In this document: positions 9,231 through 42,690 of the stretch, one piece after another
Layout of the letters: every line of letters starts with the position of its first letter
How positions within the stretch are numbered: the first letter of the stretch is position 1
Source of the DNA: an uncultured Erysipelotrichaceae bacterium
GTDB lineage: Bacteria > Bacillota_I > Bacilli_A > RFN20 > DUOF01
Length of the DNA: 64,000 bases
Assembly (NCBI GenBank): GCA_964442785.1
Contig: CAYTZW010000002.1
Span: 2,457-66,456 of the forward strand
Reading direction: 5' to 3'
Position numbers and translations under genes: made by a program
Notes under the pieces: generated by a model
The model's database searches: none
Told to the model about the DNA's origin: nothing
What the model saw: the letters and a program-made list of their open reading frames with translations, nothing else

Positions 9231-10043
9231 CTAACCATTATTTTCTTCTAAAGCCTTTTTTACTCTATCACGATTAGATTTCACAATGGTATTTAATATC
9301 AAACCAATATAAATACAAATACCAATAATTTGGAATAACAACAATAAAATAAGCAACCAAGTCAAAGGCCCATAACTATTATTGAAATTGCTCAAATATT
9401 TACTATATAAGCCAAATAAAGATATAGCAATAGTAATACTAACCGCACTAAATAATGCTCCTTGCCATATTTCTTTTAATTTCAAAAATTTATCACTAGC
9501 TAATGAATATAATAAACAAGTCATAATAAATAACATTCCAAATTCCAAGAATATTTGTAAAACTGAACCGATTGTTTTCACTTTGCTTTCTCCAATTAAA
9601 TATGCCATTAAAGCACTTAAAGTAAAAAACAAAAACAATAAAACAATAAAACAACCTGTAAGAGCTAAAGACCTTAACTTTTTTTTGATAAAAGTATTTT
9701 TTTTGTCATATAAATTATTACTAACATTAATAAAAGTGTTGAAACCATTAGAAATAATTACCATAGAAACTAAAAGGTTAAATAACAAAGATATAACATT
9801 TTCCCAAGAATGACTATTACTTAAAAAGTCAATCAAACTAGTAGCAATATTATTAGGAAAAAGTATTTTTAAATAGTTTTGTAAAAAATCTGCAGGAATA
9901 GTAAATAAGGATAAAAAGAATTGCATAATAGTTAAAGAAGGTACTAAAGCAAAAATCATATAAAACGCAAAACTAGAAGGAAATAATGACCCTTTAGTAT
10001 TTTTCATTCCTTTTACTATCTTTTTTAAAACCTCATCATACAT
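9231..10043 (-). CDS. YihY/BrkB family membrane protein
   Basis: 270 aa, polytopic; the N-terminus and hydropathy pattern resemble the YihY family. Confidence 0.55.
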   Translation of the reverse strand: MYDEVLKKIVKGMKNTKGSLFPSSFAFYMIFALVPSLTIMQFFLSLFTIPADFLQNYLKILFPNNIATSLIDFLSNSHSWENVISLLFNLLVSMVIISNGFNTFINVSNNLYDKKNTFIKKKLRSLALTGCFIVLLFLFFTLSALMAYLIGESKVKTIGSVLQIFLEFGMLFIMTCLLYSLASDKFLKLKEIWQGALFSAVSITIAISLFGLYSKYLSNFNNSYGPLTWLLILLLLFQIIGICIYIGLILNTIVKSNRDRVKKALEENNG

Positions 10044-13934: not shown

Positions 13935-15693
13935 TCGTGTCTTTTTTGAAGATGAAAAAGTAGAAGTAAAATTCAATTTCAAATACTTAATGCGAATACT
14001 AAGATATGCTTTTCCTTTTAAATTTTGGATAGGAGTAATCTTTGCTTGTTTACTTGGTCTATCCATTATTGAACTAGTAACACCTTTGTTAGAGTCAAGA
14101 ATTATTGAAAAAGTAGTTCCTACAGGTAAATATTCAGAATTAGTAACTATTTTAGTGGTCATTGCTTTTTTAGAAGTATTAAAATGTTTCCTTGATATCT
14201 TCCAAAATTATATTTCTTACAAATGTGAACATAAAATAATTTACAAAATAAGAAAAGATTTATTCGAAAAATTACAAAAACTTTATTTTGATTATTTTGA
14301 CAAAGTTCCTTCTGGAAAAATATTGGTAAGACTGACAAGTTATGTAAATCAACTAGACGGCTTCTTTGCTTATTATGCAATTCATACTGTTTTTAGTTTT
14401 TTAAAAATACTATTAGTCGTTATTTTTGCTTTTAGAATCAATGTTATTTTTACTCTTATTGTCATTGGCTATATGATAATTCTAATGGTGGTAGCGATTG
14501 GTTTAAGGTCAATAATGAAAGAAAAAAATCGTATTCATAAAAACAAAAATACCAACCGAGTTGCTTTTGTCAATGAAACCATTATAGGTAATACTGTCAG
14601 CAATGCTTTTGAAAAAAACGAAAGCAACGCCAAAACTTTCAAAGAATTAAATAATCTATCTAAAAACAGTTATTACGAAGTTGTCAAATTAAGAGAAAAA
14701 TATAACGCTACTGTATCAGTTATTTGGAACTCTATTAATATCACTTTATATGCCGTTGCCTTTTTCTTAATGTTAAAAGGAGAAGCTGTCTTGGGAGCTA
14801 TCTTAGCATTTTCTTCTTATACTGACTTATTTTACGACCCTATTATGCTTATCATAGAAGCCTTACAAGTATTTTCCGAAAAAAGTGTCAACTTAGAAAG
14901 AATATTTGAATTATTAGATTATCCTGTTAGTGTAAAAGAAAGCCCTAATGCTTATCCTTTACCTCAAGTAAAAGGAAATATCAAATATGATAATATTACA
15001 TTTGGTTATAATAAAGATTTTGCCATTTTAGAAAATTTTTCCTTAGATGTTAAAGCAGGGCAAATGATTGCTCTTGTTGGTCCTACAGGAGCAGGAAAAT
15101 CTACAGTTGTTAATTTACTAAATCGTTTTTATGACCCTGATAAAGGAAATATTTATATTGACGGACATAACATAAAAGAGGTAACCACCCATTCTTTAAG
15201 AAAACAAGTTGGTGTTATGATGCAAGACTCCTTTATCTTTAGAGGTACCATTATGGATAATATCCGCTATGGCTCTCCGCTAGCTACTGATGAAGAATGT
15301 ATTGAAGCAGCCAAAAAAATTGGAGCTAATCAATTAATAGAAAAACTACCAAATAGTTATTATGAAGAAGTTGGAGAAAATGGTGAAGGATTATCTTCAG
15401 GAGAAAAACAACTTATTTGTTTTGCAAGAATTGTCCTTAATAATCCTAAAGTGCTTATCCTTGATGAAGCAACTAGTAATATTGATAGTTTAACTGAAAA
15501 AAGAATAATGGCTGCTCTTGATATTATTACCAAAGATAGAACTTGTTTTGTTATTGCTCATCGACTTTCTACCATTAGAAAAGCTGATAAAATCTTAGTT
15601 ATCAATAATAAAGGTATTCAAGAACAAGGAACTCACGAAGAATTAATGAAATTAAAAGGACAATATTTTAAATTAGTAAATCACCAAATATAA
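13915..15693 (+). CDS. ABC transporter permease/ATP-binding protein, exporter half-transporter 2
   Basis: TMD plus NBD (GPTGAGKST, LSSGEKQL, LILDEATS). Overlaps the partner by 20 nt, consistent with a heterodimeric pair. Confidence 0.8.
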   Translation: MKIMQNNRVFFEDEKVEVKFNFKYLMRILRYAFPFKFWIGVIFACLLGLSIIELVTPLLESRIIEKVVPTGKYSELVTILVVIAFLEVLKCFLDIFQNYISYKCEHKIIYKIRKDLFEKLQKLYFDYFDKVPSGKILVRLTSYVNQLDGFFAYYAIHTVFSFLKILLVVIFAFRINVIFTLIVIGYMIILMVVAIGLRSIMKEKNRIHKNKNTNRVAFVNETIIGNTVSNAFEKNESNAKTFKELNNLSKNSYYEVVKLREKYNATVSVIWNSINITLYAVAFFLMLKGEAVLGAILAFSSYTDLFYDPIMLIIEALQVFSEKSVNLERIFELLDYPVSVKESPNAYPLPQVKGNIKYDNITFGYNKDFAILENFSLDVKAGQMIALVGPTGAGKSTVVNLLNRFYDPDKGNIYIDGHNIKEVTTHSLRKQVGVMMQDSFIFRGTIMDNIRYGSPLATDEECIEAAKKIGANQLIEKLPNSYYEEVGENGEGLSSGEKQLICFARIVLNNPKVLILDEATSNIDSLTEKRIMAALDIITKDRTCFVIAHRLSTIRKADKILVINNKGIQEQGTHEELMKLKGQYFKLVNHQI

Positions 15694-18414: not shown

Positions 18415-20025
18415 ATGAAAAAACTAATTTTACTAACTACAATATTAACAAGTATTATCCAACCAATGACTTTTGTTAATGTCAAAGCTCAAGAAAATTC
18501 CTCAACTGGTGCAACAGTAACGATTGAAACAAAAGAATTAGAATTACCTACAACTATCTATGTAATTGATGTTATAGAAGTACAATTTATCGATGAACTC
18601 GGTGCTTATGGAGGAAGTGGAGATATTGAATATACTTATTCTAATGAAAAAGAATATTACCTTACCGACAACCAAAGCCTTCAAGCCTTAAATGATTTAT
18701 TCTATCAATATAATGAAGGTCGTAATTATGAATGTGATAAATGTGACGGAAGCGATTATGCTTATATAAAAACTACCAAAAGGATAAATGTAATATACAC
18801 CACTAAAACTTCCAACAACTACACAGGTAGAATTATTCCTAAAACTACAAGACAAAACACCAAAACACCTTATACAATAACTTATAATTCTTTAGATAAT
18901 TACTCTCCTGTTGTATCAGGAAAATTAAATTACGTAACTAATCCTCAAAACATTATTACTTTAGAACAAATCATCGCCAATATTTCCGTTATTGATGAAA
19001 CCGACGGTGAAATAGAATTAACAAGCAACAACATCACTTTAAATGAATATGAAAACAACCAAACTACTTTAGGAAATCATAATATTGTTTTTGAAGTGTC
19101 TGACAAAGCAGGAAATAAAGCAACCTTAACGATTACCATTATGGTAATCGATACTCTTTCTCCAATCATTTCAGGACCTGAAACAGTCAATTCTTATATG
19201 TCTAATAGTTTAACTATTCAAGATATAAAAAATTTGCTTTCCGTAGAAGATGATTGTGATGACCTAAAAGTAACTGATATTCAAATAAAAAAAGATGATT
19301 ATACCGAAAACAAAGACAAAATAGGAGAATATGAAATTGTTTTTAGTATTTATGATTTAGCGGGAAATGAAGGTACTCATCAAATGACAATAAACGTTAT
19401 CGATGATATAAAACCTACTATCACAGGAACTTCATCATATCAAAAAGGAAGTACTGATTTAACTTTAACCTTAGAAAAAATACTAAATGATTTAAAAATA
19501 GAAGATAATATTTCAACTTTAGATAAATCTAATCTTAATATTGTAAAAAACACTTATAGTGAAAATTTCTCTAAAGTCGGTACTTGGGAAATAATCCTAA
19601 ATGTTAAAGACCAAGCTGGTAATACCTCAAATGATTTTACCATTCAAATTCAAGTATTAGATGACATTGCTCCTGTTTTTTGGGCTAACAACAGCTTTTT
19701 TGTATACGTAGACACATCTACGCCATTATCATCATCACAAATAGGACAGATAGCCAAAAACATAGGAATTATCGATAAAAAAGCGACAAACATTCAAATA
19801 ATTTCCAATGAATACGAAGGAAATGAAACCATAGAAGGAGAATATCAAATATCTGTATTAGCAATAGATAAAAATGGTAAAGAAAGTGCCGGTTCTTTTA
19901 CTCTAAAGGTTAACACCAATTATGATAAATTGAATTTAGTGAAAAAGACTAAAAAGAAGCTAAAATGGTATCAAAAAATATGGAAAACCATTAAAAATAT
20001 TTTCAGTTTTAAATGGATAAAATAA
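18415..20025 (+). CDS. Secreted protein with four or more tandem DUF5011/HYR-like Ig-fold domains
   Basis: Signal peptide. Repeats of about 95 aa each end in D-x-AGN-x(7)-I-x-V-x-D and the next begins D-x-x-x-P-x-I (DTLSPIISGP, DDIKPTITG, DDIAPVFW). Confidence 0.65.
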   Translation: MKKLILLTTILTSIIQPMTFVNVKAQENSSTGATVTIETKELELPTTIYVIDVIEVQFIDELGAYGGSGDIEYTYSNEKEYYLTDNQSLQALNDLFYQYNEGRNYECDKCDGSDYAYIKTTKRINVIYTTKTSNNYTGRIIPKTTRQNTKTPYTITYNSLDNYSPVVSGKLNYVTNPQNIITLEQIIANISVIDETDGEIELTSNNITLNEYENNQTTLGNHNIVFEVSDKAGNKATLTITIMVIDTLSPIISGPETVNSYMSNSLTIQDIKNLLSVEDDCDDLKVTDIQIKKDDYTENKDKIGEYEIVFSIYDLAGNEGTHQMTINVIDDIKPTITGTSSYQKGSTDLTLTLEKILNDLKIEDNISTLDKSNLNIVKNTYSENFSKVGTWEIILNVKDQAGNTSNDFTIQIQVLDDIAPVFWANNSFFVYVDTSTPLSSSQIGQIAKNIGIIDKKATNIQIISNEYEGNETIEGEYQISVLAIDKNGKESAGSFTLKVNTNYDKLNLVKKTKKKLKWYQKIWKTIKNIFSFKWIK

Positions 20026-30654: not shown

Positions 30655-31058
30655 TTAAAACACCTCACTTATTATATGAGATGTTAATTTATATTGTTAC
30701 TATAATCCATATTGACTTTTTCCGACCAAAATGGAATTGCATTCCAGAAAAGTCGTGATTTCACAAATTTAAAGTGTACCCTAAAAATACCCTATAGCTT
30801 ATTTCAAAATAGTCTATAAATAATTAGACCTTAATCTAGTTAAAAATAGATTTAATACTCACTGTAATTTTTTACATTCATCATATCTATTATCGTTCAT
30901 ATCATACTATAAAATTTCATTATTTTTCACTATTTTTTCACTATTTTTCAAATATATTAATGACTAAATTCACTTTCTAAAGTTATGAAATCATTTTTAT
31001 ATGTAACTATTTTTTACATTTAATTTTTTTATGTTATAATATTTCTCGGAGATGCTTT

Positions 31059-31730
31059 ATGAAAGAAAAAATTATTTATTACTTTAAAAAATATCACATT
31101 TGGTACGCATTATTAATTGCTGCCCTATACTATGGAAAACTAATGATGTATAAATTTTCCAATCGTGTTAATACAAACTACCATTATATCAATATGAAAA
31201 TAGATGACTTAATCCCATTTTGTAAATACTTTATGTTTTTCTATTTTACTTACTATTGGTTTTCTCAATTACAATTATGGTTTGTCAGCTATGGAAACAA
31301 AAGAAAATTTTATCGAATGTTAATCGCTGCTGCTATAACTTGCGTTGCTTGTAATATTTGCTTTTTATGTTACCAAGTAAGAATGATTAGACCTGAAGTA
31401 ACTGGAAATGACCCTTTTGATTTATGGGTAAAATGGATTTATAATCGAGATGCCAAAGCAATGAATTGTTGTCCTTCGATCCACGCCGTTATGGGAACCT
31501 TAATGGTAATCGGAGGATTTAAAAGCAGTAACCTACCAAAATGGTTAAATATAGTTAGTGTCATCTTTGGTGTAGGTTGTATTGTATCAACAGTATTTGT
31601 TAAACAACATTACTTTATCGATATGGTTCTTGGAGTTATTTTTATGACAATATTCTACCTTATTGTAGTTTTTGTAGATAATAAAATACTCAAGAAAAAA
31701 GAAATGAATACTATAAAAAATGAAATCTAA
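31059..31730 (+). CDS. PAP2-like membrane phosphatase family protein
   Basis: Polytopic. CCPSIHAV resembles the PSGH motif and KQHYFIDMV resembles SRx5Hx3D. Confidence 0.45.
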   Translation: MKEKIIYYFKKYHIWYALLIAALYYGKLMMYKFSNRVNTNYHYINMKIDDLIPFCKYFMFFYFTYYWFSQLQLWFVSYGNKRKFYRMLIAAAITCVACNICFLCYQVRMIRPEVTGNDPFDLWVKWIYNRDAKAMNCCPSIHAVMGTLMVIGGFKSSNLPKWLNIVSVIFGVGCIVSTVFVKQHYFIDMVLGVIFMTIFYLIVVFVDNKILKKKEMNTIKNEI

Positions 31731-31746
31731 CAAATAAAAATATGCA

Positions 31747-31778
31747 AGGGGTGTTTTGCATATTTTTTAATCTATTAC
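31747..31778. terminator. Bidirectional terminator between the PAP2 gene and surface-protein paralog A
   Basis: ATATGCAAggggtgttTTGCATAT flanked by A/T runs. A near-identical copy lies at 35584-35615. Confidence 0.7.
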
Positions 31779-31782
31779 GAAA

Positions 31783-34305
31783 TTAGTTATGTGCTTTTTT
31801 GTGTTTTTTAATGACAATTACTTCAATAGCTAACAAAGAAGAAATTATAATCATTGAAACAAATATCATATAGTTAGATTTTGTAATATTTTCTTTAATT
31901 ACAATGTTAGAAGTAGATAAGGTAACAGGTTTAGTACTTTCTTCTTCAACAGGAGTTTCAGTTTCTAATTCGAGAGCAAATGTTATAGTAGAATTGCCAC
32001 TATTTGTAATATTAATAGACCTAGATTTAGTGAAAATAGTTGCTAAGTTTGTACCACTTAATTCTACATACAACTTGACTTCCCCTATTAATCCTTGTGG
32101 AGTAACTAAAGAAGATGTAAAGAAAGAAGAAGCAGCGATGCTAACCCCATATTTATCAAAAGCATCACTTAAATTACTATCATATAAATCAGGTTTACCG
32201 ATAAAATATCTGATAGTTCCATTTTTATATGCTTCTTGAATACTGTTAGAAGTTGCTTTTGTAAAAGTTATTTTTCCATTGCTAATGGAAGCGGTTGCAA
32301 AAATATTACTCATTGTAGGTGGCAGTATTGTATACGAATATCTTAAATAAGAAGATGCAAAAGACATACTGGTGTCAGGAACTTTTCCTGAATAGGTTGC
32401 AACATTATCAGCATTATCCTTTCCTACATTATAAATCCATAAATAATAAGTTCCTTGTTCTGAAACTATAGGAGCTGTAGTAGTAAAAGAAACATTATAA
32501 GCTGTATTTGATGTAAATGTTCTTACAAAACTCGAATAAGAAGGAGCGGAAGTTGAATTGTTCCAAGCATACATATATTGAGTAGGAGAAGAACAATCAT
32601 ATATACCAGAACTAGCTGATTGATTTTTTTCTTCTGTTAATTGAAAACTTATTGAGGAACCTGAACTAATAGTAGAAACATTACTTGTATACCAAACAGG
32701 TTTTGTTTTATCAATAGTTAAATATACAGATACACCATTTCCTGTTTTATCACTGACTAAGATTTCATAAATTCCTTCATCAGATAAAGTTCCATATGTA
32801 TAACTCGTTCCTGCTGAGTCTAAACTTGTATATTCTTCATAAGCACTAAGTGTTTCAGAAACAGTAACGCCTAAAAGAGCTTGATTATCAGTAATTATTA
32901 AAGAACAAGATGCATTTTTATAAGTAGGAGAACTTGAAGAAGTAGACAACACTGTTCCACCACAAGTAACACTAGGAGCGGTATTATCAATAACTAAATA
33001 TCCAGTCGTAGTATTACCAGTGGCGTCTTTGACGATAATTTTATAACTACCTTCAGTAGATAAAGTACCATAGGTGAATTTTGTCCCTGAAATTGCATCT
33101 GTTACATCTCCATAAATTTCATATTGTGATAATGCTTTATTATCGGTAAATACTAAAGAACAAGATTTGCTATAACTTGGAGAAGTAGATGAAGACGAAA
33201 GGGTAATTGAACCACATTTAATCACAGGAGCTGTTGTATCTAAAATAAGGGTAAAAAGAACTTCGGTATAGTTTCCTGATGTATCATAAACCGTAAAAAG
33301 ATTTCCACCCTCAAGTAAAGAACCATAGGTATAACTAGTACCTGATATTTCTTTATCCGAATAAGAGCCATTTTCTATTTCTGCAGTAAATTCTGATAAT
33401 CCAATATTATCTTTAAAAATTACTGTACAAGATGAATACAAGGTTACACTTGTGGTGGTAGAATAGGTATTACTACCACAAGTAATGGTAGGTGGAGTTG
33501 TATCTGATGATACAGTAAGGTGAACAATAAAAGAAATTTCTCCTTTACTATAATATATACCAGCAGTAATTTTATAGGTACCTGGGGATAAAGTATAAGC
33601 ATTTTCATAAATAGTTAAGCTATCAGTAACAGTTTTTCCAAAAGTAGTGGTTCCTGAAATTTCAAAATGGTCTCCACTTAACATAACATTCGTGGCAGAA
33701 GTAGTTAAGTATAATTCTTTTCCTTTTTGTTCAAGAACATAATAATATGTTCCGTCAACACCTATGAGACTATCAATTCCATTGTATACATTTGTTTCTA
33801 TGTAAACATTTAAAGTAATTTCACATATCCAATAATAATCATAACTGTCATTAATAAGTGTAACATCAGCTACTACAATATTAAAAGAACCTTCATATAA
33901 ATAAATTTCAAACTCTCCACAAAAATAATCAGAAGGGTCATCATTACCCATATATTCATAGTTAGAACCACTGCTAGCAGAAAATCCACCGTCATCTGTA
34001 TATGCGTGTAACATAACAAAATCGCCTTCCCTTATAATTATATCTTCGGTAAAAGAATAATATCCACTATCATCAGGATCATATAAATTTTCATTCCATT
34101 TAAAATCATAAGCATTATTATATAACTTTTGTCTAAAACTATTATCAGAATGAACATTTGCTGTTGCAGCTGCGTTTCCTGTTTCATTTGGAACATCTCC
34201 AGACCAGTCATTAGCTTTTGCCATATTATTTGACAAAAATACTAGACTTATAAAGGACAAGCATAACGATAATAAAATTATTCCTACTCTATTCTCCTTT
34301 TTCAT
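31783..34305 (-). CDS. Surface protein paralog A: signal peptide, HYR/DUF5011-like Ig-fold repeats, conserved C-terminal module with TM anchor and basic tail (KKHKKAHN)
   Basis: Start refined to MKKENRV, which has a GGGGGTG RBS. Repeats of about 95 aa begin DTTAPxIxCG and carry D-x-x-GN motifs. The C-terminal roughly 200 aa is near-identical to paralog B. Confidence 0.7.
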   Translation of the reverse strand: MKKENRVGIILLSLCLSFISLVFLSNNMAKANDWSGDVPNETGNAAATANVHSDNSFRQKLYNNAYDFKWNENLYDPDDSGYYSFTEDIIIREGDFVMLHAYTDDGGFSASSGSNYEYMGNDDPSDYFCGEFEIYLYEGSFNIVVADVTLINDSYDYYWICEITLNVYIETNVYNGIDSLIGVDGTYYYVLEQKGKELYLTTSATNVMLSGDHFEISGTTTFGKTVTDSLTIYENAYTLSPGTYKITAGIYYSKGEISFIVHLTVSSDTTPPTITCGSNTYSTTTSVTLYSSCTVIFKDNIGLSEFTAEIENGSYSDKEISGTSYTYGSLLEGGNLFTVYDTSGNYTEVLFTLILDTTAPVIKCGSITLSSSSTSPSYSKSCSLVFTDNKALSQYEIYGDVTDAISGTKFTYGTLSTEGSYKIIVKDATGNTTTGYLVIDNTAPSVTCGGTVLSTSSSSPTYKNASCSLIITDNQALLGVTVSETLSAYEEYTSLDSAGTSYTYGTLSDEGIYEILVSDKTGNGVSVYLTIDKTKPVWYTSNVSTISSGSSISFQLTEEKNQSASSGIYDCSSPTQYMYAWNNSTSAPSYSSFVRTFTSNTAYNVSFTTTAPIVSEQGTYYLWIYNVGKDNADNVATYSGKVPDTSMSFASSYLRYSYTILPPTMSNIFATASISNGKITFTKATSNSIQEAYKNGTIRYFIGKPDLYDSNLSDAFDKYGVSIAASSFFTSSLVTPQGLIGEVKLYVELSGTNLATIFTKSRSINITNSGNSTITFALELETETPVEEESTKPVTLSTSNIVIKENITKSNYMIFVSMIIISSLLAIEVIVIKKHKKAHN

Positions 34306-34361
34306 AAATAACACCCCCAAGATTGCATCTTTTGTAAGTATACATCTCTTTTACATTGTAC

Positions 34362-34390
34362 ATTATATATATATATATATATAAATGCAA
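34362..34390 (-). promoter_or_regulatory. Predicted sigma-A promoter of paralog A: TTGCAT, then a 17-nt spacer made of T plus (TA)n, then TATAAT
   Basis: Read directly from the sequence. The (TA)10 tract at 34364-34383 forms the spacer and the 5' part of the -10 hexamer. Confidence 0.55.
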
Positions 34391-34414
34391 CTTTTCAAAA
34401 TTTGATAAAAAATT

Positions 34415-34434
34415 TATATATCTTTAGATATATA
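34415..34434. promoter_or_regulatory. Perfect palindrome TATATATC-TTTA-GATATATA 24 nt upstream of the paralog A -35
   Basis: An identical palindrome sits at the same distance upstream of the paralog B promoter (39173-39192). Confidence 0.4.
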
Positions 34435-34527
34435 AAAATATATAGGTATTGTTATATTCGCAAATTTTAAAATTTTATTATCTATTTAACCATTAAATGT
34501 TTTATAATTGTGCTAGGAGGGTAATTA

Positions 34528-35559
34528 ATGGATAATAAACCAATGAAAAGCAGTATTGAAATTGATGACATTTTTGTCAACATTAAAGAATTAGTAATTA
34601 ATAGTAGGAATAAAGTATACCAAACGGTAAATACTGAAATGCTTAATTTGTATTAGAATATAGGAAAAGCAATTATTGGAATACAATTAGGCGATGAAAG
34701 AGCAAATTATGGTGATGCTGTTTTGGAAAAGTTGTCAGAAAAATTAACTAGTGAATTTGGAAAAGGATTTTCTAAGAGAAATCTTGAAAGAATGCGAAAA
34801 TTTTATATATGTTTCCCAATTACGACAACAGTGTCGTCGCAATTAAGCTGGTCTCATTATTTAGAACTTATCAAAATTGAAGAAGAACCAAAAAGAAATT
34901 TTTATTTTAATGAATGTATTAATTCTAAATGGAGTGTTCGAGAACTCCAAAGACAAAGAAACTCCCTGCTTTATGAAAGATTGATTTTATCCGCTGATAA
35001 AGAAAAAGTATTGGAATTATCGGAAAAAGGTCAAATATTGAAAACAAGTAAAGACTTAGTAAAAGACCCTTTTGTATTAGAATTTTTGGATATAAAAGAA
35101 AATACCAATTATTTAGAATTTGATTTAGAAAAAAATATTATAGAACATTTAAAAGAATTTTTGCTTGAACTTGGAAAAGGATTTAGTTATGTCGGAAATC
35201 AAATGAGATTAACATTAGAAGAAGACCATTTTTATCCTGATTTAGTATTTTACAATAGACTTTTAAAGTGTTTTGTAATCATTGATTTAAAAATAGGAAA
35301 AGTATCACATCAAGATATTGGACAAATGCAAATGTATGTAAATTATTATGATAGAGAAATTAAGCAAGCTGATGAAAACGCAACAGTTGGAATTTTACTT
35401 TCAACAGATAAAAATGAAACTGTCGTAAAATACACTTTACCTAAAGATAATAAAACTATTTTTTCTTCAGAATTCAAATTGCATATGCCAACTGAAGAAG
35501 AATTAATTAATGCCATAGAAGAAGAAAAGAAGAACTTTAAATTGAATGAAAAATAATAA
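34528..35559 (+). pseudogene. DUF1016/YhcG-like (PD-(D/E)XK nuclease family) gene with an in-frame amber stop at codon 43
   Basis: AGGAGG RBS, then ATG at 34528. The product reads ...EMLNLY*NIGKAIIG..., whereas the family has LYWEIGK, so TGG (Trp) has become TAG at 34654-34656. Downstream are DUF1016 motifs FGKGFSKRNLERMRKFY and QLSWSHYLEL. The track ORF 34723-35556 is the 3' portion. Confidence 0.6.
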
Positions 35560-35583
35560 AGATTTATCTGATAAGAAAAGCAA

Positions 35584-35615
35584 AAAATATGCAAGGGGTG
35601 TTTGCATATTTTTTA
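35584..35615. terminator. Terminator hairpin, copy of the 31747-31778 element
   Basis: ATATGCAAggggtgttTGCATAT followed by TTTTTT. Confidence 0.65.
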
Positions 35616-35700
35616 AATCTATACGAAATTAGTTGTGTGCTTTTTTATGTTTTCTTTATGACAATTAAACCACATAGACATTATTTCTATTAGATATGTA
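35616..35700 (-). pseudogene. Remnant of the 3' end of a third surface-protein paralog
   Basis: The minus strand encodes ...GLIVIKKT* followed by the same 3' flank as paralogs A and B (compare EVIVIKKHKKAHN* and EVIVIKKHKKAL*). No upstream ORF. Confidence 0.5.
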
Positions 35701-35831
35701 ACTATGACTTTAATACATTTTTTTTGCATATTATCAATCAAACAGTTTTCGCAGTTAATTACGAAAACTATTGTGTTTTTAAAACTTTTCGTTCATTTTT
35801 GCAAAATAAGTTTTTTCATTATTTTAAACTA

Positions 35832-38800
35832 TTATAATGCTTTTTTATGTTTCTTTATGACAATTACTTCAAGTGCTAACAAAGAAGAAATTATTATCAT
35901 TGAAACAAATAACATATAATTAGGTTTTCTAATATTTTCTTTAATTACGATGTTAGAAGTAGATAAGGTTATTTCTTTAACTTCATTACTAGCCACTTCA
36001 GTTTCTGAAGAATTAAAGATTATATTAGCACTACCAGTATTAGTTATATTAATACTACCTGATTTAAGAATAAGAGGATTTGTATCTTTATCATCTAATT
36101 TAAGCATAATGTATAACTCAACATTTCCTATTAATCCTTGAGGAGTAGTTATTGCTCCTTTTTCAAAGAATTTAGACGCTGGCATATTATTGGAAGGACT
36201 ATAAGTAACTCCATATTTTTTAAATCCGTCTTCTAATAAAACATCAGTAGAATAGTTACCATATTTACCTACAAAATAAACCGCTATTCCATTTTTATAT
36301 TCTTCTTGGATATTATTATTTCCTGATATAGTAAAGGATATTTGTCCATTGTTAAGCTTAGCATCGTTTATAATAGCCTTACTAGGAACGGTTCCGTCAT
36401 CATTTATCTCAATAGCAATAGAAGTCATATTACCTGCATAATCATAAGCACTAATACTATATGAACCTGCTGAAGATATAATATATCTATCTCCTGTTCC
36501 TGTGTAATTATCCGCTCCTGATACTACATAGTTTTTAAACATTTTATCTTCAAAAAATAACGTTAAGGGAACATTACTATGATAACTTATTTGCTTATCT
36601 TCTAGTACTTCTCCACTAGAAGAATTAAGTCGTATATTAGGAGATGTGGTATCTGCTAAAATAGTGTATTTATATTTTAATGTACCATAATATATTTCAC
36701 TATAATAATGAGGAGTTTTCCCTGAAAAAATTGCAACATTGCCTGAAGTATCTGCTCCTCGATTGAAAATCCAAAGATAATATGTCGTATTTTGAGTAAC
36801 TTTTGGAGCAGTTGTCATAAATGAAACTTTTGTAGTAGTGGTAGATATAAATGCTGGCTTTAAATCCCAAGTTGGTGATTCAGTATCGCTTATTGACCAA
36901 TCGTACCAATAAGTATAAGTACCATTATACAATTCAATATTATCTGTAATTTCAAAATAAATAGGGGTATTTGTTACTACTTCATTTATATCTTCAGTAT
37001 ACCAAACTGGTGGTTCTGTATCTGCATCAGTATCTGTATCTGTATTAGAGCCACTTGAAACATTAATAGTATATTTGTATTTAACATAATCAGTATAATA
37101 TGAAGTTGAATAATAAGGCTCTTTTCCTGAAAAAGTCGAAATATTGCCTACATAGTCTTTTCCTATGCTAGAAATCCATAAGTAATAGGTTTTACTATAA
37201 GTAACCATTGGTGCTGTAATTGAAAAAGAAACTTTTGTAGCAGATGTTTCTATAAAAGTGGTTAACCAAGTAGGTTTAGAATTTTTTGTAGTAGACCAGC
37301 CATAACAATAAAATTCACTTGCAGTTAGAAAACTATATAGACGTCTATTATCGGTTAATTGTACATATACACTATCTCCTGAATTGATTTCCGTTACATC
37401 TTCAGTATACCAAACTGGAGCTTCTGTATCATTACTATCTGCCAAAACAGTATAGTTATATATAACTTTGCTACTATAAGAAGTGTTACTAGATGCTGGG
37501 GATTTTCCCTTAAAAGTTGCAAGATTGCCAGCAGCATCTTTTCCTTGGTAATAAATATAAAAACTATATACAGCATCTTCTGTTACATATGGTGCTTTTA
37601 TGCTGAAACTAATAGTATTTGAAGTTTGCAAAGTGAAATTTGATTCAAGAGTGGAAGTATACCAACCATATTTATAATAAGTTGATGCAGATGAAAAACC
37701 CCATATTTTTTTATTATCAGTTAATTGAAAATTAAGAATAGTTCCTGAGTTGATTTCCGTTATATCTTCTGTATACCAAACTGGAGCTTCATTATCTTCT
37801 TTAATGTGATATTCATATATAAGGTATAAATAATCCCCGCAAGAATATGGTTCTTTTCCTGAAAATGTTGCAACATTACCTGCTAAATCCTTGCCTCTCT
37901 TATAAATCCATAAATAATAATTTGTATTAGATTTTACAAATGGTGCAGTTGTAGTAAAAGAAATCTTTGTTGGCGATACTATAGAATATTTATACGACCA
38001 AGAAGATGGAGTTTCAGTAGAACTAGTGGACCAACTATAGCCATAATAGGAATAGTCTCTATTAGCATACCTATAATATTCTATTTCAAATAAGTCTGTT
38101 AATTGAAAATTTAATTCTTGACCTGATTCTATTTCATAAATATCATCTGTATACCAAATTGGTGCCTCATCATCACCAATAATATAATATTCATACACAA
38201 CACACGAGTCATATGTATCTCCATATGAAATAGGTTGTTTTCCTGAAAATGTTGCAAGATTTCCTGAATCATCTTTACCTCTATGTTGAAGCCACAAATA
38301 ATATATTCCACTTTCAACTTTACTTGGTGTTGTTTTAAAATGATACATACTTGAAGAATGACCAATATATTGTTCGGACCAATATGATGGTTTTGTGGAA
38401 GAACTAGTAGACCAACCATATCGGTAATAATATGAATAGTAAGTAGAAGTAGAAGTTTCTTCTTCAATATAAATATTTGTTCCTGTTAATTTAAATTCAA
38501 GAGGTGTCCCACTATATATTTTATACAAATCATTAGTATTCCAAACAGGAGCGGTCGAAGAAGTAGTTCCACCAGAACTGCTTGACCCACCTGAAGAACC
38601 AGAACTGCCTGATTCACTCGAACTACCCGAACTACTTTCTATTATTTTTGTAACTGTTATCGTGATATTATAAGTAACATAAACTTCCTTATTGGAGCCA
38701 TAATAATCAATAACAGTAAAAGTATAAGTTCCTGTTGTATTTAAATTATAGTAATAATCTCCTCTTAAAGTTACACAAGAAGAATAATATCCACAATAAG

Positions 38801-39057
38801 AGCCATTATCGGCAACTATAGTAACTGAAACTGGTCCTTTTAAACTAAGACTTTTGGTAACAACATCACCTTTTTCATACATAACGCCATAATATTCATA
38901 TGAATTTCCTTCAGCATCATCTATCATAATGCAAGCATTTTCTTCCAAAACATCATCAACTCCTGCTTTTATGTTTTGACTTGTTACCAAAAACATACCT
39001 AAAAAAGCCATAAATAAGGCTAATAAAGCTACTTTTTCCTTTTTCATATATAACACC
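35832..39057 (-). CDS. Surface protein paralog B (about 1075 aa): signal peptide, Ser/Gly-rich linker, 5-6 repeats of about 115 aa of a HYR/DUF5011-like module, conserved C-terminal anchor module
   Basis: Start refined to MKKEKVALL, which has a GGGGGTG RBS. Repeats read APVWYTEDIxEIxSG...QLTD...YYLWI..GKD.AGN.ATFSGK. The C-terminal module is near-identical to paralog A. Confidence 0.7.
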
Positions 39058-39109
39058 CCCAAGATTATGTCTTTCACACCCAAAAGTACATATCTTTTTC
39101 ACAAAGTCC

Positions 39110-39148
<39 letters not shown>

Positions 39149-39172
39149 CTTTTTAAAATTACAAGAAAGGTT

Positions 39173-39192
39173 TATATATCTTTAGATATATA
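39173..39192. promoter_or_regulatory. Palindrome TATATATC-TTTA-GATATATA, second copy
   Basis: Identical sequence and spacing (24 nt from the -35) as at 34415-34434. Confidence 0.4.
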
Positions 39193-39232
39193 AAAAAGAT
39201 ATTAGCACCTATCCTTTAGTATCACTAATATC
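39186..39232 (-). terminator. Terminator after psd
   Basis: AAGATATTAG stem, 19-nt loop, CTAATATCTT stem, followed on the minus strand by TTTTTTAT. Confidence 0.5.
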
Positions 39233-40081
39233 TTATTTTTTAATTCCTATTTTTTCTCCACATAAAACATAAGTTTCTACTTCTGCTTGAGTATTTATAA
39301 AAAACTCCTCATCAAGTTTTATTTTATTTTCTTCAACTAGCACTACAATCGTAGAGCCACCAAATTCAAATTTGCCTTTTTCCATACCTTTTTGGAAAGA
39401 CCCTTCATTGTGATAATTAACAATTCTTCCTACCATCATTGCCCCTACTTCCACTTGAGTTACATCTCCAAAGTTTTTTGTATGCATTATTGTATATTCA
39501 CGACAATTTTCACTAAAAACTTTTCTTTTTGACAAAGCAAAAGGTTGTACCGTATGTAATTTCCCTTTAATAAAAACATTTTCCCCTTTATCGCAATCAT
39601 CAAGATAAAAATATCGATGATAATCTTCCACTGCTAATCTAAAAACTAAACACAAACCATTTTGATATTTAGCGGCAAGTTCTTTATTTTGTAATAACGT
39701 TTCAACATTATACTTAAAATCTTTTATAACAAACTCCGTTTTCTCATTTATAGGAAAAACAGTCATTTTCCCGTCGCAAGGAGCAATAAAAGCATCATCA
39801 CTATAATCAAATGGTCTTTTATTTTCTTTTATTTTACGGGTGAAAAAATCATTAAAACTAACATACTCTTTTTCTTCAAATTGATTCATATCAATATTAT
39901 TATTTTTTATGTATTTTCCAATTCTTCTTTTAGACAATTTGCTATCTAAATATTTACCCACTAATTTAGAAATCCACCTTTGAGTTAAAAAATACAAACA
40001 TAAGTTTCCTAATAAAGTATTATATAAAAATTTAACGGATTTAGGGGTTTTTAGTTCTTCTTTTTTTAAAGTCTTACGCAT
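39233..40081 (-). CDS. psd: Phosphatidylserine decarboxylase proenzyme
   Basis: 282 aa with the FGGST self-cleavage motif and other PSD-family conservation. Confidence 0.8.
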   Translation of the reverse strand: MRKTLKKEELKTPKSVKFLYNTLLGNLCLYFLTQRWISKLVGKYLDSKLSKRRIGKYIKNNNIDMNQFEEKEYVSFNDFFTRKIKENKRPFDYSDDAFIAPCDGKMTVFPINEKTEFVIKDFKYNVETLLQNKELAAKYQNGLCLVFRLAVEDYHRYFYLDDCDKGENVFIKGKLHTVQPFALSKRKVFSENCREYTIMHTKNFGDVTQVEVGAMMVGRIVNYHNEGSFQKGMEKGKFEFGGSTIVVLVEENKIKLDEEFFINTQAEVETYVLCGEKIGIKK

Positions 40082-40082
40082 T

Positions 40083-40763
40083 CTAAATTACCCAAAATTT
40101 TAAAACTGCTAAGAATATTAATAGTAAAGCAACACCCAACAAAATCTTCATAATGGTTTTGAACCCAACTTTTGGTATTCTAAATTTCAAAATGAAAGCG
40201 AATGCTACTACTATATATCCTATTAGCATTGTTAAAGTATAGCCTAAAGACCCATTTGAAAACATAGTTGCTATTAAATAACAAGCCGGTATGATAACAG
40301 CAGCATTAGTTACTGGTAATCCGTCATAATATTTTCTTTTGCCACAATCTTCTTTTTCGGTTCTTAATATTTCAGTTACATCAAAATACGCTAATCTAAT
40401 TAAAGCACACAAAACATAAAGAATGAAAATAGGAAGAAAATACCACCTGTTAATTCCCATACCAAACATAATCGCCGTAGGTGCTAAACCAAAAGCAATT
40501 AAATCTGATAAGGAATCAATTCTTTCACCAAACATTAAATCTTCTTTACTTCTATTTTTTCTAGTTCTGGCAACCATTCCATCAAAGGAATCGCATATTC
40601 CTGAAATAAGTAAACAAATAACTCCAATATATGGTAAAGGTTCTTTATTCCCCCCCCACCGAGAAGTAAATTCCAACCACACCTGCCGCAACAGACATAT
40701 AAGTTAAAATAACTCCATAATGATAAAATCCTAAAAAAGGACATTTTGATTTACTTTGCATAA
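40083..40763 (-). pseudogene. pssA: CDP-diacylglycerol--serine O-phosphatidyltransferase (pssA) interrupted by a +1 frameshift in a G8 tract
   Basis: The N-terminus MQSKSKCPFLGFYHYGVILTYMSVAAGVVGIYFSVGG is in one frame and stops after the G8 run at 40650-40657 on the coding strand. The track ORF 40083-40691 (GGNKEPLPYIGV...CDSFDGMVAR, a CDP-alcohol phosphotransferase motif) follows in another frame. Removing one G gives a continuous protein. Confidence 0.6.
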
Positions 40764-40775
40764 TACAACCTCCAA

Positions 40776-41819
40776 TTAAATTTCTTTAATAACCTTTTCT
40801 TTTTTATAAAACAAATGATAGCAAATCGTAAAAATACCACTTATAAGCATATTCAAATAATAAGCTATGATTCTTGTAATCATTACGGCTACCACTATAA
40901 AACTTTCTGAAAAAAACAATCCAAATATATTAAGATATAAATACTCATACGCTATTGAACCACCTGGCAAAGGTATTGAATTATAGCCTAACAAAACTAA
41001 TGATTGTAGAATAAATACTTCCCAAAAAGAACAATCTATTCCAGCCTTACAAACAAAACAAGAAATCATAACTTGTGAAGACCTTTGAGCCACATTTAAA
41101 ACTACAACAGGCAACAATATCTTTTTATGTTTTTTCAATTCTTCATAACAACTGCTATATTTATCAATAACACCATCTATTTTTCCTAACCATTTATCTT
41201 TTCTTCTAACTATTCTTATTTTAGAAAGAAAATTAACCATTCCATAGCAAAACTTTTTAACCAAAGAGGCCTTGCATATACAAAGAACAAAAAAGCTTAA
41301 CAACAAAATTTGAGAAACAAATCCTAAAATAATTAAAGTTTTTACAAAAGCCGATAATTGTAAAAAGGTATCAAATCCGAAAATCATTGCTACGCTACCA
41401 ATAATAAGAATAGCTAAAGTATAACCTATAAGATTAAAAATCAAAGAAAATCCGGTTGTACCACCTGAAATTCCATCTCTTACCATATAGAAAGCACTTG
41501 CGGGTTGACCTCCAGTAGCAGAAGGTGTAATCGCTGAATAATATGTATCCGCAGTAGTATAAGCTATTGAAGATATAAATCGAGGTTTATATCCAAATTT
41601 ATTTAAAATGACATCTAAACTTATAGCTTCAAATAAAATGAATAAAAGCCAACAGCAAAAAGCTAAGACTAAATATTCTATCTTAGCAGAAAAGAAAAAG
41701 TTTTTAATATTAGAGAAATTAAGCTCTCCTGTATTTTTAGATAATATATAAATCGTTAACACTAAAAGCAGAACTACAAAAAGAATATTTGCTAACTGTT
41801 TTTTTACATTTTTCTTCAT
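40776..41819 (-). CDS. Polytopic membrane protein, UPF0104 / lysylphosphatidylglycerol-synthase TM-domain-like (flippase-like)
   Basis: 347 aa with 8-10 TM helices, directly upstream of pssA-psd. Confidence 0.45.
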   Translation of the reverse strand: MKKNVKKQLANILFVVLLLVLTIYILSKNTGELNFSNIKNFFFSAKIEYLVLAFCCWLLFILFEAISLDVILNKFGYKPRFISSIAYTTADTYYSAITPSATGGQPASAFYMVRDGISGGTTGFSLIFNLIGYTLAILIIGSVAMIFGFDTFLQLSAFVKTLIILGFVSQILLLSFFVLCICKASLVKKFCYGMVNFLSKIRIVRRKDKWLGKIDGVIDKYSSCYEELKKHKKILLPVVVLNVAQRSSQVMISCFVCKAGIDCSFWEVFILQSLVLLGYNSIPLPGGSIAYEYLYLNIFGLFFSESFIVVAVMITRIIAYYLNMLISGIFTICYHLFYKKEKVIKEI

Positions 41820-42024
41820 TAAAAGTTCTCCTTTTTTGTTTTTATTCTAACAATTTTCGACAGCAAAATCAATTATATATATATATATATATGCAGAACT
41901 AACAAATATTTTGTTTTAATTTACCATTTCAAAGATTTTTTGTTCACTTTTTAATTGAAAATCAAAACTTTCCCATTGATATATATATATATATTAAAAT
42001 TAAATCAAAGGGGAGGAAACTTTT

Positions 42025-42690
42025 ATGAAAAAGAAAAATTTTTTATTAATTTTATTTTTAGGACTTAGTTTAAGTTTATTTGGTGGTTGCAAAATAGGTG
42101 ATAACTTCTTCAATGACGGCAATGATACACCAACAGTTTCTGAAAAAGATCAAAAATATGATGTCTATCTAATGGCAGTTGAAGAAGGATTAACTTCTTT
42201 AACATATGAAGATTGGCTAGATACCATTAAAGGAGAAATTGGACCTGAGGGTCCTGCTGGTAAGAAATTATTACTAAATATAAGTTCTACACATATTCAA
42301 TATAAATATGAAGGTGACCTTACGTGGACAAATTTAATTTCATTAAATAAGTTAAAAGGCGAAGATGGCACTGATGGCAGAGAAGTTAAATTTTGTACGA
42401 CAGACACTGCTATACGATGGAAATATGAAGATTATAATTACATTAAAAAATGTGACGAATGGAATTTTCTAATATCTTTCAATGAACTTAAAGGTGAAGC
42501 CGGTAAAGACGGTAAAGATGGTGCAACTTGGCATACTGGAGAAGGAGAACCCCTCTACAATCCAAATATACATAATGACGGTGATTTATACCTAGATAGT
42601 AAAACCGGTATTATTTATGAATGCAACGTCGTTTATTGGACAAAAGTAATTGATTTAACTGAAATAAAAAAAGAAAAAAATAACTGTTAA
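42025..42690 (+). CDS. Lipoprotein with collagen-like G-x-y triplet motifs; apparent 5' fragment of a larger surface-protein gene
   Basis: AAAGGGGAGG RBS. Lipobox LFGGC. Three repeats of the LKGExGxDG type (GEIGPEGPAG, GEDGTDG, GEAGKDGKDG). Ends in a poly-A tract. Confidence 0.55.
   Translation: MKKKNFLLILFLGLSLSLFGGCKIGDNFFNDGNDTPTVSEKDQKYDVYLMAVEEGLTSLTYEDWLDTIKGEIGPEGPAGKKLLLNISSTHIQYKYEGDLTWTNLISLNKLKGEDGTDGREVKFCTTDTAIRWKYEDYNYIKKCDEWNFLISFNELKGEAGKDGKDGATWHTGEGEPLYNPNIHNDGDLYLDSKTGIIYECNVVYWTKVIDLTEIKKEKNNC

What the first reader, a model, noticed from the sequence alone, without database searches (positions are those of the whole stretch)
31783..39057. Locus of paralogous C-terminally anchored surface proteins built from HYR/DUF5011-like repeats with a shared C-terminal module
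The two genes (845 and about 1075 aa) differ in their repeat modules but share a near-identical C-terminal module of about 200 aa (TPQGLIG.V.LY...LSTSNIVIKENI.K.NYM.FVSMIIISSLLA.EVIVIKKHKKA). Both end in a TM helix plus a basic tail and have no LPXTG sorting motif. The YYLWI...D.AGN signature also occurs in the 6637-7911 gene. The 18415-20025 gene carries the related DxAGN Ig-repeat signature. A variable N-terminal part on a conserved C-terminal module suggests cassette-like diversification by gene conversion. This would be a surface-antigen variation system.
Basis: partly seen in the sequence, partly recalled or inferred. Interest (0 to 1): 0.7.

Follow-up and report, generated by a model that had tools for sequence, protein, structure and literature searches.

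The report
Rare modular membrane-anchored surface protein pair
Two neighbouring genes of an uncultured low-GC Firmicute encode long bead-on-a-string surface proteins of a very rare, unnamed family; they share a membrane-anchor module and a promoter, show no sign of an active cassette-swapping system, and carry a (TA)n tract at the promoter that may tune or switch expression.

Summary
Gene A (31786-34305, 840 aa) and gene B (35835-39047, 1071 aa) are minus-strand paralogs. Each has a Sec signal peptide, repeated modules, a shared C-terminal module, one C-terminal TM helix and a basic tail. Neither has LPXTG or a lipobox. The C-terminal module is 53% identical over 182 aa; only the last ~46 aa are near-identical. 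No Pfam or NCBIfam family reaches threshold (HYR 15 bits against a cutoff of 21.7), although AlphaFold models show Ig/FN3-like beta-sandwiches. An exhaustive profile search of 1.84 billion representatives found only 9 proteins with the C-terminal module. Gene conversion between cassettes is not supported. No silent copies occur in the window. The longest exact A/B match in coding DNA is 21 nt. dS is 0.37-0.86. The only trace of rearrangement is an 85-nt remnant of a gene 3' end. The tract has 10 repeats in A (17-nt spacer), 15 in B (27 nt) and 5 in a related pseudogene. Phase variation through this tract is plausible but untested. Overall this is a new variant of a known kind, of moderate interest.

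The parts
31786..34305 (-). Gene A, 840 aa: signal peptide, N region, 3 Cys-containing Ig-like repeats, 1 PVWYT module, C-terminal anchor module
   Evidence: ORF. ATG start preceded by SD GGGGGTG. Identical to database protein P0004.
34213..34305 (-). Gene A signal peptide (residues 1-31, MKKENRVGIILLSLCLSFISLVFLSNNMAKA|N); no lipobox
   Evidence: Sequence; regex check.
33505..34212 (-). Gene A N-terminal region (residues 32-267). Residues 176-270 match the family 'N-module' HMM. Residues 32-175 have no detectable relatives.
   Evidence: HMM E=1e-9. AF2 pLDDT is <50 for model residues 1-146 and 60-70 for about 150-235.
32713..33504 (-). Gene A: three ~88-aa 'D.T.P.I.CG...C.L.F.D...SGTSYTYG...D..GN' Ig-like repeats (residues 268-531)
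   Evidence: Repeat HMM E 1e-38 to 1e-45. AF2 pLDDT 80-95, all-beta. Foldseek matches tandem bacterial Ig adhesins (SiiE TMt 0.5, GhpA, RTX adhesin). Pfam HYR is sub-threshold only.
32320..32712 (-). Gene A: single PVWYT...YYLWI...GKD.A.N module (residues 532-662)
   Evidence: Module HMM E=5.5e-32. AF2 beta-sandwich with pLDDT ~90.
31786..32319 (-). Gene A: family-defining C-terminal module (residues 663-840): beta-sandwich, ~30-aa disordered stalk, TM helix (approx. 31807-31872) with invariant A-x-E-x-I-x-I, and basic tail KKHKKAHN
   Evidence: 53% identical to B. Alignment of 10 homologs. AF2 model. Only 9 proteins at E<1e-30 among 1.84e9 representatives.
35835..39047 (-). Gene B, 1071 aa: signal peptide (38964-39047), N-module (38637-38963), Ser/Gly linker (38562-38636), 5 PVWYT modules (36654-38561), 1 Ig-like module (36393-36653), C-terminal anchor module (35835-36392)
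   Evidence: five modules, E 1e-52 to 1e-58; N-module; residues 792-886 hit weakly at 1e-4. Identical to P0001.
34319..34434 (-). Gene A expression cassette: 20-bp palindrome TATATATCT-AA-AGATATATA (34415-34434), TTGCAT (34385-34390), 17-nt spacer containing most of (TA)10 (tract 34364-34383), -10 TATAAT (34362-34367), leader hairpin (34319-34348); the SD GGGGGTG follows
39061..39192 (-). Gene B expression cassette: the same palindrome (39173-39192), TTGCGT (39143-39148), 27-nt spacer with (TA)15 (tract 39112-39141), -10 TATAAT (39110-39115), leader hairpin (39061-39096)
35583..35667 (-). Remnant of the last ~25 nt of an A-type coding sequence plus stop and terminator hairpin; 92% identical to the 3' end of gene A
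   Evidence: D12; blastn, 87 nt, 92%.
34528..35556 (+). YhcG/DUF1016 PDDEXK-nuclease gene between A and B, with an in-frame TAG at codon 43 (34654-34656); probably a pseudogene and not part of the system
   Evidence: Pfam YhcG_C 4.8e-55, DUF1016_N 2.2e-29. Translation.
31733..31763 (.). Hairpin ATATGCAA-N8-TTGCAT AT with T-runs on both strands: shared terminator of gene A and the convergent PAP2-like gene
   Evidence: read from the sequence. Not picked up by the consensus terminator scan.

Best explanation
A and B are old, diverged tandem paralogs of a very rare, so far unnamed family of cell-surface proteins from uncultured low-GC (27-34% GC) Firmicutes. Inferred mechanism: each protein is exported by Sec through a cleavable N-terminal signal peptide. 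It is retained by a single C-terminal stop-transfer TM helix with a cytoplasmic Lys-rich tail. A ~30-residue disordered stalk and a conserved membrane-proximal beta-sandwich follow. On these sits a variable string of Ig/FN3-like beta-sandwich modules (three further module types) that projects a variable N-terminal end through the wall, which is an adhesin-like architecture. Each gene is its own transcription unit. Both use a family-specific cassette: a 20-bp palindrome (presumed regulator site), a TATAAT box, a 12-bp leader hairpin just 5' of a strong SD, and a terminator. Diversity in the family arose by module duplication and shuffling and by gene birth and death on an evolutionary time scale, not by an active cassette or gene-conversion machine. 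Shown here: paralogy, module architecture, fold class, rarity, conserved cis elements, and absence of cassettes. Inferred: surface exposure, adhesive role, and regulator binding. Sub-claim (about 0.3): the (TA)n tract abutting the -10 box changes length by slippage and switches or tunes expression of the individual paralogs.
Against: Surface exposure and any binding function are inferred only. The N-terminal 145 residues of mature A have no relatives and no confident model. The organism is unidentified: the nearest species representatives have only 52-56% Psd identity. Wall thickness and envelope type are therefore assumed from the SleB-like hydrolase in the window and from sporulation genes at a related locus. 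With only about 10 family members the conservation statistics are thin. The reduced dS in the last 47 codons (0.37 against 0.86) and the 92%-identical 3' remnant show that some recombination between copies has occurred.
Confidence: 0.7

Rival explanations
1. SSR-driven phase variation. The (TA)n tract lies between a TTGCRT -35-like hexamer and the TATAAT box, and slipped-strand mispairing changes the spacer length. In this assembly A ((TA)10, 17-nt spacer) would be ON and B ((TA)15, 27-nt spacer) OFF. The population would therefore display alternative surface proteins, as with H. influenzae hifA/hifB and M. mycoides vmm.
For: Tract positions and spacers come from the sequence. Homologous promoters with conserved flanks GTTGCRTT-(TA)n-ATGKAC carry 5, 10 and 15 repeats, so the tract length is evolutionarily unstable. 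The expected number of 16-nt TA runs in the window is 0.001 and 4 are observed. A further tract, (AT)8, lies 31 nt upstream of a lipoprotein-like gene. Precedents: a (TA)9-11 tract in the hifA/hifB promoter, proposed to alter the -35/-10 spacing (PMC2651432), and dinucleotide insertions or deletions in a repetitive promoter region for Vmm (PMC2628566).
Against: TTGCAT matches TTGACA at only 3 of 6 positions and was not called by the promoter scan. The two L001 promoters have no long TA tract and no conserved -35. The distance from palindrome centre to -10 box is 47, 57, 58, 58 and 67 nt, i.e. steps of one helical turn. This fits equally well with all alleles being 'in phase' for an upstream activator, so B need not be OFF. 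No within-population length polymorphism could be examined. TA tracts also occur at another promoter region in this AT-rich window.
Confidence: 0.3
2. One reading: an antigenic-variation system in which variable N-terminal cassettes are exchanged onto a constant C-terminal module by gene conversion between paralogs.
For: The 5' cassette (promoter, leader, start of the signal peptide) and the 3' end (132 nt at 92%) are conserved and flank divergent middles. Module composition differs among family members. An 85-nt A-type 3' remnant shows a past rearrangement. dS is lower at the 3' end.
Against: There are no silent copies in 64 kb. The longest exact match is 26 nt (the palindrome) and at most 21 nt in coding DNA, between paralogs or among B's own repeats. 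dS is 0.37-0.86, so there has been no recent homogenisation. The conserved non-coding elements are equally conserved in other organisms (L001, L008), which indicates functional constraint rather than conversion. No recombinase was found, and the only nuclease gene nearby (YhcG) carries a premature stop.
Confidence: 0.07
3. The conserved C-terminal end is a new tripartite sorting signal, consisting of the motif L-[ST]-x-S-[ND]-I, a TM helix with invariant A-x-E-x-I-x-I, and a basic tail. An unknown dedicated enzyme (analogous to sortase, exosortase or rhombosortase) would process it, so the mature protein would not be TM-anchored.
For: Residues in and just before the TM helix are invariant or nearly invariant across 10 homologs, including a membrane-embedded Glu. 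The preceding stalk is variable. dN is 0.07 in the last 47 codons against 0.53 upstream. The layout resembles known C-terminal sorting signals (own knowledge).
Against: No NCBIfam sorting-domain model hits at E<=1. No candidate processing enzyme is conserved next to the genes in the window, L001 or L008. The signal always comes with the whole ~175-aa module rather than appearing on unrelated proteins, unlike true sorting signals. Another TM-anchored Ig-like protein in the window (6637-7911) lacks the motif.
Confidence: 0.07

Closest known systems
C-terminal 'hydrophobic tail' surface proteins of Gram-positive bacteria (e.g. Listeria ActA class)
   Same: An N-terminal Sec signal peptide, a single C-terminal membrane-spanning segment followed by positively charged residues (stop-transfer), and no LPXTG (class described in PMC4010754).
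   Different: There is no sequence relationship. Here the anchor is part of a conserved ~175-aa module with a beta-sandwich and an invariant Glu in the helix, and the ectodomain is a string of Ig/FN3-like modules.
Bacterial tandem Ig-like repeat adhesins (SiiE BIg domains, RTX adhesin extender repeats, GhpA; Pfam HYR / Big_13 / DUF5011 families)
   Same: Predicted beads-on-a-string beta-sandwich repeats of 85-130 aa ending in a 'D.xGN' strand motif. These adhesins are the best structural matches.
   Different: No Pfam model reaches its gathering threshold. The repeats contain a conserved Cys pair or the PVWYT/YYLWI signature. Anchoring is by a C-terminal TM helix in a monoderm, not by T1SS, an outer membrane or sortase.
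Promoter-spacer dinucleotide-repeat phase variation (H. influenzae hifA/hifB (TA)9-11; Mycoplasma mycoides vmm)
   Same: A (TA)n tract lies immediately upstream of, and overlaps, the -10 box of surface-protein genes. The tract length differs among homologous promoters (5, 10, 15) (PMC2651432, PMC2628566).
   Different: Switching has not been observed. The -35 element is weak. An upstream palindrome keeps helical register in the three alleles. The proteins are unrelated to pili or Vmm lipoproteins.
Mycoplasma variable surface lipoprotein families (Vlp, Vsp, Vsa, Vpma)
   Same: A multigene family with a conserved 5' expression region and signal peptide, variable repetitive bodies, and clustered paralogs.
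   Different: There is no lipobox, no site-specific recombinase or inversion sites, the anchor is at the C-terminus, and only two copies occur in the window.

Membership tests
Pfam HYR (PF02494) | HMM score at or above the gathering threshold (21.7 bits) | tested here: not met
   The whole proteins give no hit at E<=1. The A repeat segment scores 15.2 bits, E=0.028, covering only profile positions 2-38.
Pfam DUF5011 / Bact_surface_Ig-like (PF16403) | HMM match | tested here: not met
   Not reported for A or B at E<=1. Only the separate 18415-20025 protein shows a sub-threshold hit (21.5 bits against a cutoff of 27).
Ig/FN3-like beta-sandwich fold class | Seven-to-nine-stranded two-sheet sandwich, confirmed by structural comparison | tested here: met
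Sortase (LPXTG) substrates | LPXTG-type motif immediately before the C-terminal TM helix | tested here: not met
   A regex search found none near the C-terminus of any family member. The only hit is an LPSTA at residue 375 of 825 in P0003, far from the anchor.
Bacterial lipoproteins (incl. mycoplasma Vlp/Vsp type) | Lipobox [LVI][ASTVI][GAS]C at the end of the signal peptide | tested here: not met
   No lipobox in the first 40 residues.
C-terminal hydrophobic-tail membrane-anchored surface proteins | Cleavable N-terminal signal peptide plus a single C-terminal TM segment followed by basic residues | tested here: met
   Sequence. AF2 helix at model residues 281-308, preceded by a disordered stalk.
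C-terminal hydrophobic-tail membrane-anchored surface proteins | Demonstrated exposure on the cell surface | not testable with these tools
   Requires proteomics or immunolabelling.
SSR promoter-spacer phase-variable genes (hif, vmm type) | Repeat tract located between functional -35 and -10 elements | tested here: inconclusive
   The tract abuts and overlaps the TATAAT box. The upstream hexamer TTGCAT/TTGCGT matches only 3 of 6 positions. Spacers are 17 nt (A), 27 nt (B) and 7 nt (L008).
SSR promoter-spacer phase-variable genes (hif, vmm type) | Repeat-number polymorphism within a population, correlated with ON/OFF expression | not testable with these tools
   Only differences between paralogs and between species (5, 10, 15 repeats) could be seen. 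No reads or strains were available.
Gene-conversion cassette antigenic variation (pilE/pilS, vlsE type) | Silent partial copies and long identical tracts that serve as conversion substrates | tested here: not met
   tblastn and blastn of the masked window find only an 85-nt 3' remnant. The longest exact match in coding DNA is 21 nt. Only 64 kb of the genome could be examined.
Site-specific inversion switches (vsa, vpma, fim type) | Recombinase gene and inverted repeats flanking a promoter or gene segment | tested here: not met
   Inverted repeats in 31000-40000 are TA-tract or low-complexity only. No recombinase domain was found among the neighbouring genes scanned.

The most novel reading that the evidence does not exclude
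The family carries a dedicated, previously undescribed expression switch. An unknown regulator binds the 20-bp palindrome. A slippage-prone (TA)n tract sets both the -35/-10 spacing and the helical register between that site and the -10 box; the observed distances are 47, 57-58 and 67 nt. Individual paralogous surface proteins would therefore be turned on and off or graded in a population of an uncultured Firmicute. In addition, the invariant A-x-E-x-I-x-I helix would mark a new type of anchor or sorting signal.
Probability: 0.2. Interest if true: 0.55.

Novelty: new variant of a known kind. Interest (0 to 1): 0.35.

Why it matters
Surface proteins of uncultured low-GC Firmicutes are poorly catalogued. 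This locus defines four module types that no Pfam or NCBIfam model captures. One is a C-terminal anchor module found in only about ten proteins among 1.84 billion cluster representatives. The locus also defines a conserved promoter and leader cassette. If the TA tract proves to be a switch, it would be an example of promoter-SSR phase variation of modular surface proteins in this group of bacteria. If it does not, the result is a well-delimited but ordinary adhesin-like gene pair. The practical value is mainly for annotation (new domain models) and as a candidate contingency locus to test in read data.

Tried and rejected
- Pfam, NCBIfam and PHROGs scans and a PDB sequence search on A and B gave nothing at threshold.
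- The word-index homolog search worked only with full-length B, returning 3 proteins. The C-terminal alignment and a 309-aa fragment returned nothing, not even the query's own protein, so those two searches were uninformative.
- Scans with the C-terminal alignment found no relatives in genome contigs, metagenome contigs or viral contigs, and a tblastn of full-length protein A against plasmids gave no match.
- Organism identification through the neighbouring Psd protein gave only 52-56% identical hits: uncultured Clostridia MAGs, Clostridium sp. CAG:307 and an Acutalibacteraceae MAG. None of these loci carries the family.
- Scanning metagenomes for the 21-nt palindrome gave 24 loci. None has the family leader or gene downstream, so the palindrome alone is not diagnostic and no regulon could be defined.
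- The afdb50 fold library was unavailable.
- A phage or plasmid origin was rejected.
- A role for the intervening YhcG nuclease in recombination was rejected, because the gene has a premature stop and is a common stand-alone gene.
- Rfam found no known RNA in the window.
Full report
**What is there**

The window is 27% GC. Two long minus-strand ORFs lie at 31783-34320 and 35832-39083. Each has an ATG a few codons inside the ORF, at 34305 and 39047. Both ATGs are preceded by the same Shine-Dalgarno context, AATCTTGGGGGTGTTAT. These starts give 840 aa (A) and 1071 aa (B), identical to the database proteins P0004 and P0001. Between the genes on the plus strand lies a YhcG/DUF1016 PDDEXK-nuclease gene (Pfam 4.8e-55). 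Its 343-codon frame is broken by a TAG at codon 43. The surrounding genes are ordinary chromosomal genes: a GNAT acetyltransferase, a SleB-like hydrolase, a PAP2-like protein, Psd, PssA, an LPG-synthase-TM protein, ABC transporters, MscS and RluA.

**Checking the observation**

A and B are clearly paralogs. BLASTP aligns the C-terminal 182 residues at 53% identity (E=5e-45). It also aligns the single ~130-aa 'PVWYT...YYLWI...GKD.AGN' module of A to the modules of B at 33-41% identity. An HMM built from the B modules finds five copies in B (E 1e-52 to 1e-58) and one in A (5.5e-32).

A also has three ~88-aa repeats of the form 'D.T.P.I.CG...C.L.F.D...SGTSYTYG...D..GN', with two conserved cysteines. 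Both proteins carry a ~95-aa 'N-module' shared with other family members; A residues 176-270 match at E=1e-9.

Both proteins start with a signal peptide that has an A-x-A type cleavage site. Both end in a hydrophobic helix plus KKHKKA. Neither contains LPXTG or a lipobox.

Only the last 132 nt are 92% identical, and upstream DNA identity falls to roughly 60-65%.

'HYR/DUF5011-like' fails as a family assignment. Neither whole protein hits any Pfam or NCBIfam model at E<=1. The best segment hit is HYR at 15.2 bits against a cutoff of 21.7.

The side remarks hold. The 6637-7911 protein contains KTYYLWIRAEDFAGN and matches the family-wide module HMM at E=4e-6. The 18415-20025 protein has real Big_13 and HYR hits.

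**Structure**

An AlphaFold2 model of A residues 532-840 was built with an MSA of homologs and internal repeats. It has mean pLDDT 82.6 and pTM 0.70. It shows two beta-sandwiches (the PVWYT module and the C-terminal domain), a disordered stretch of ~30 residues, and a 28-residue helix.

A second model covers A residues 31-531. The three Cys-repeats have pLDDT 80-95 and are all-beta. The first 146 residues have no alignment depth and pLDDT below 50.

**How widespread**

A profile of the C-terminal region was searched exhaustively against 1.84 billion cluster representatives. It found 9 proteins at E<1e-30, including A and B, and nothing convincing beyond them. Each is a singleton cluster seen on one or two contigs.

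All share the ~175-aa C-terminal module. It has invariant residues A-x-E-x-I-x-I inside the helix and a conserved L-[ST]-x-S-[ND]-I motif before it.

The ectodomains range from 20 or more Ig-like modules (P0002, 1768 aa; P0005, 1907 aa) to unique non-repetitive bodies (P0008; the second gene of L001).

No relatives were found in one-genome-per-species GTDB contigs, JGI metagenome contigs or IMG/VR using the C-terminal alignment, nor in plasmids by tblastn with protein A.

The organism could not be placed. The neighbouring Psd protein is only 52-56% identical to its best hits, which are uncultured Clostridia MAGs and Clostridium sp. CAG:307. A related locus, L008, sits beside the sporulation genes spoIIIAH, sigE and sigG.

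**The cassette / gene-conversion idea**

I looked for the substrates such a system needs.

- Masking A and B and searching the rest of the window with all family proteins (tblastn) and with the gene regions (blastn) finds only three things: the weakly related 6637 and 18415 genes, the two homologous promoters, and one 85-nt fragment at 35583-35667.
- That fragment is 92% identical to the last ~25 nt of the gene A coding sequence plus its terminator.
- The longest exact match between the A and B regions is 26 nt (the promoter palindrome). It is at most 21 nt in coding DNA, and at most 21 nt among B's own repeats.
- Nei-Gojobori estimates give dS 0.86 and dN 0.53 for most of the C-terminal module, and dS 0.37 and dN 0.07 for the last 47 codons. 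This indicates strong purifying selection on the anchor and at most old exchange, not ongoing homogenisation.
- No recombinase and no meaningful inverted repeats are present.

The remnant, the frameshifted family pseudogene in L008 and the varied architectures point instead to gene birth and death and to domain shuffling over evolutionary time.

The upstream regions of A and B are homologous, and so are those of both family genes in L001 and of the L008 pseudogene. The shared elements are:

- a 20-bp palindrome, TATATATCT-AA-AGATATATA, identical in four promoters, degenerate in L008, and present only at these two sites in the window;
- an invariant TATAAT box;
- a leader hairpin of 12 pairs. 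It is fully paired in all five sequences and has compensatory changes at 4 pairs, against 35-53% pairing and no compensation when the partners are slid;
- the SD and start context, which is also visible translated as 'LGVLFM' in over-extended database proteins.

In the window genes a (TA)n tract runs into the -10 box. Gene A has (TA)10, giving TTGCAT-17 nt-TATAAT. Gene B has (TA)15, giving TTGCGT-27 nt-TATAAT. L008 has (TA)5 with the same flanks. Runs of this length are not expected by chance: 0.001 expected per window against 4 observed.

Two readings are possible. In the first, the tract is a promoter-spacer switch of the hifA/hifB or vmm kind (PMC2651432; PMC2628566), with A ON and B OFF. 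In the second, the -35 is weak (3 of 6 matches; not called; absent in L001), so the tract instead sets the distance from the palindrome to the -10 box. That distance is 47, 57, 58, 58 and 67 nt, i.e. whole helical turns. All observed alleles may therefore be competent for an upstream activator. Either way, single-unit slippage would perturb expression. No population data were available, so this remains a hypothesis. I put it at about 0.3.

**Comparison with known systems**

The anchoring mode is that of Gram-positive 'hydrophobic tail' proteins such as ActA (PMC4010754). The ectodomain is of the tandem-Ig adhesin kind. The promoter tract resembles SSR contingency loci. Membership in HYR, DUF5011, LPXTG substrates, lipoproteins, cassette-conversion systems and inversion switches was tested and not met. 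The beta-sandwich fold class and the hydrophobic-tail layout were met.

The conserved anchor could in principle be a new sorting signal. However, no processing enzyme is conserved nearby, and the motif never occurs apart from the whole module.

**Verdict**

This is a real, well-delimited pair of paralogous surface-protein genes from a very rare, unannotated family: a new variant of a known kind. The antigenic-variation-by-gene-conversion interpretation is not supported. A TA-tract-based expression switch is the most interesting reading still open. Interest is moderate (0.35).

Noticed in passing
window 40650-40657 (within 40083-~40761, minus strand): The pssA-like CDP-alcohol phosphatidyltransferase gene is frameshifted at a G8 homopolymer (C8 on the plus strand). 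This is the only G/C run of >=7 in the 27%-GC window. With G7, an upstream ATG with a GGAGG SD reads through as MQSKSKCPFLGFYHYGVILTYMSVAAGVVGIYFSVGGNKEPLPYIG... This could be a phase-variable tract or a homopolymer sequencing error.
   Followed up: partly
window 34528-35556 (+), stop at 34654-34656: The YhcG/DUF1016 PDDEXK nuclease gene between the two surface-protein genes has an in-frame TAG at codon 43 (LY*NIGK), so it is a likely pseudogene.
   Followed up: yes
window 35583-35667: An 85-nt remnant (92% identity) of the 3' end and terminator of an A-type gene lies 165 nt downstream of the gene B stop and right after YhcG. This is evidence that a third copy, or a duplicated 3' end, was lost.
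   Followed up: yes
window 41874-41892 and 41979-41994: Two more long TA tracts, (TA)9.5 and (AT)8, lie in the divergent intergenic region between an LPG_synthase_TM-family gene (40776-41819, -) and gene 42025-42690 (+). That gene encodes a lipoprotein-like product (LSLFGGC) with collagen-like GxxGxxG stretches. The (AT)8 tract lies 31 nt upstream of its ATG.
   Followed up: partly
window 34319-34348 and 39061-39096; L001 ~10004-10034 and ~15447-15477; L008 ~9028-9058: A conserved 12-bp stem-loop in the 5' leader sits immediately 5' of the SD. Four pairs show compensatory changes across five sequences. It has no Rfam match. It may be an mRNA stabiliser or a translational regulator.
   Followed up: yes
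window 6637-7911 (+): A 424-aa protein has an N-terminal TM/signal segment, Ig-like modules (one weakly related to the PVWYT module, E=4e-6), and its own C-terminal TM helix plus a KKKKK tail without the A-x-E motif. This is a third TM-anchored Ig-like surface protein in the window.
   Followed up: partly
window 2433-5987 (-): A 1184-aa ORF has N-terminal TM segments and a long acidic, apparently helical, repetitive body. It has no Pfam hit at 1e-5 and only a negligible PHROG hit.
   Followed up: no
L008 9070-10624: The family gene of a related organism (Logan SRR22923253) is broken into at least four frames, so it is a pseudogene or contains assembly errors. It lies just upstream of the genes annotated here, from context, as spoIIGA-sigE-sigG. 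Its promoter has (TA)5 and a degenerate palindrome.
   Followed up: partly
L009, L011, L015, L017, L020, L028 (metagenome Ga0247733): The 21-nt palindrome also lies within a longer, conserved, AT-rich repeated element present on six contigs of one metagenome. This element is unrelated to the surface-protein family.
   Followed up: no
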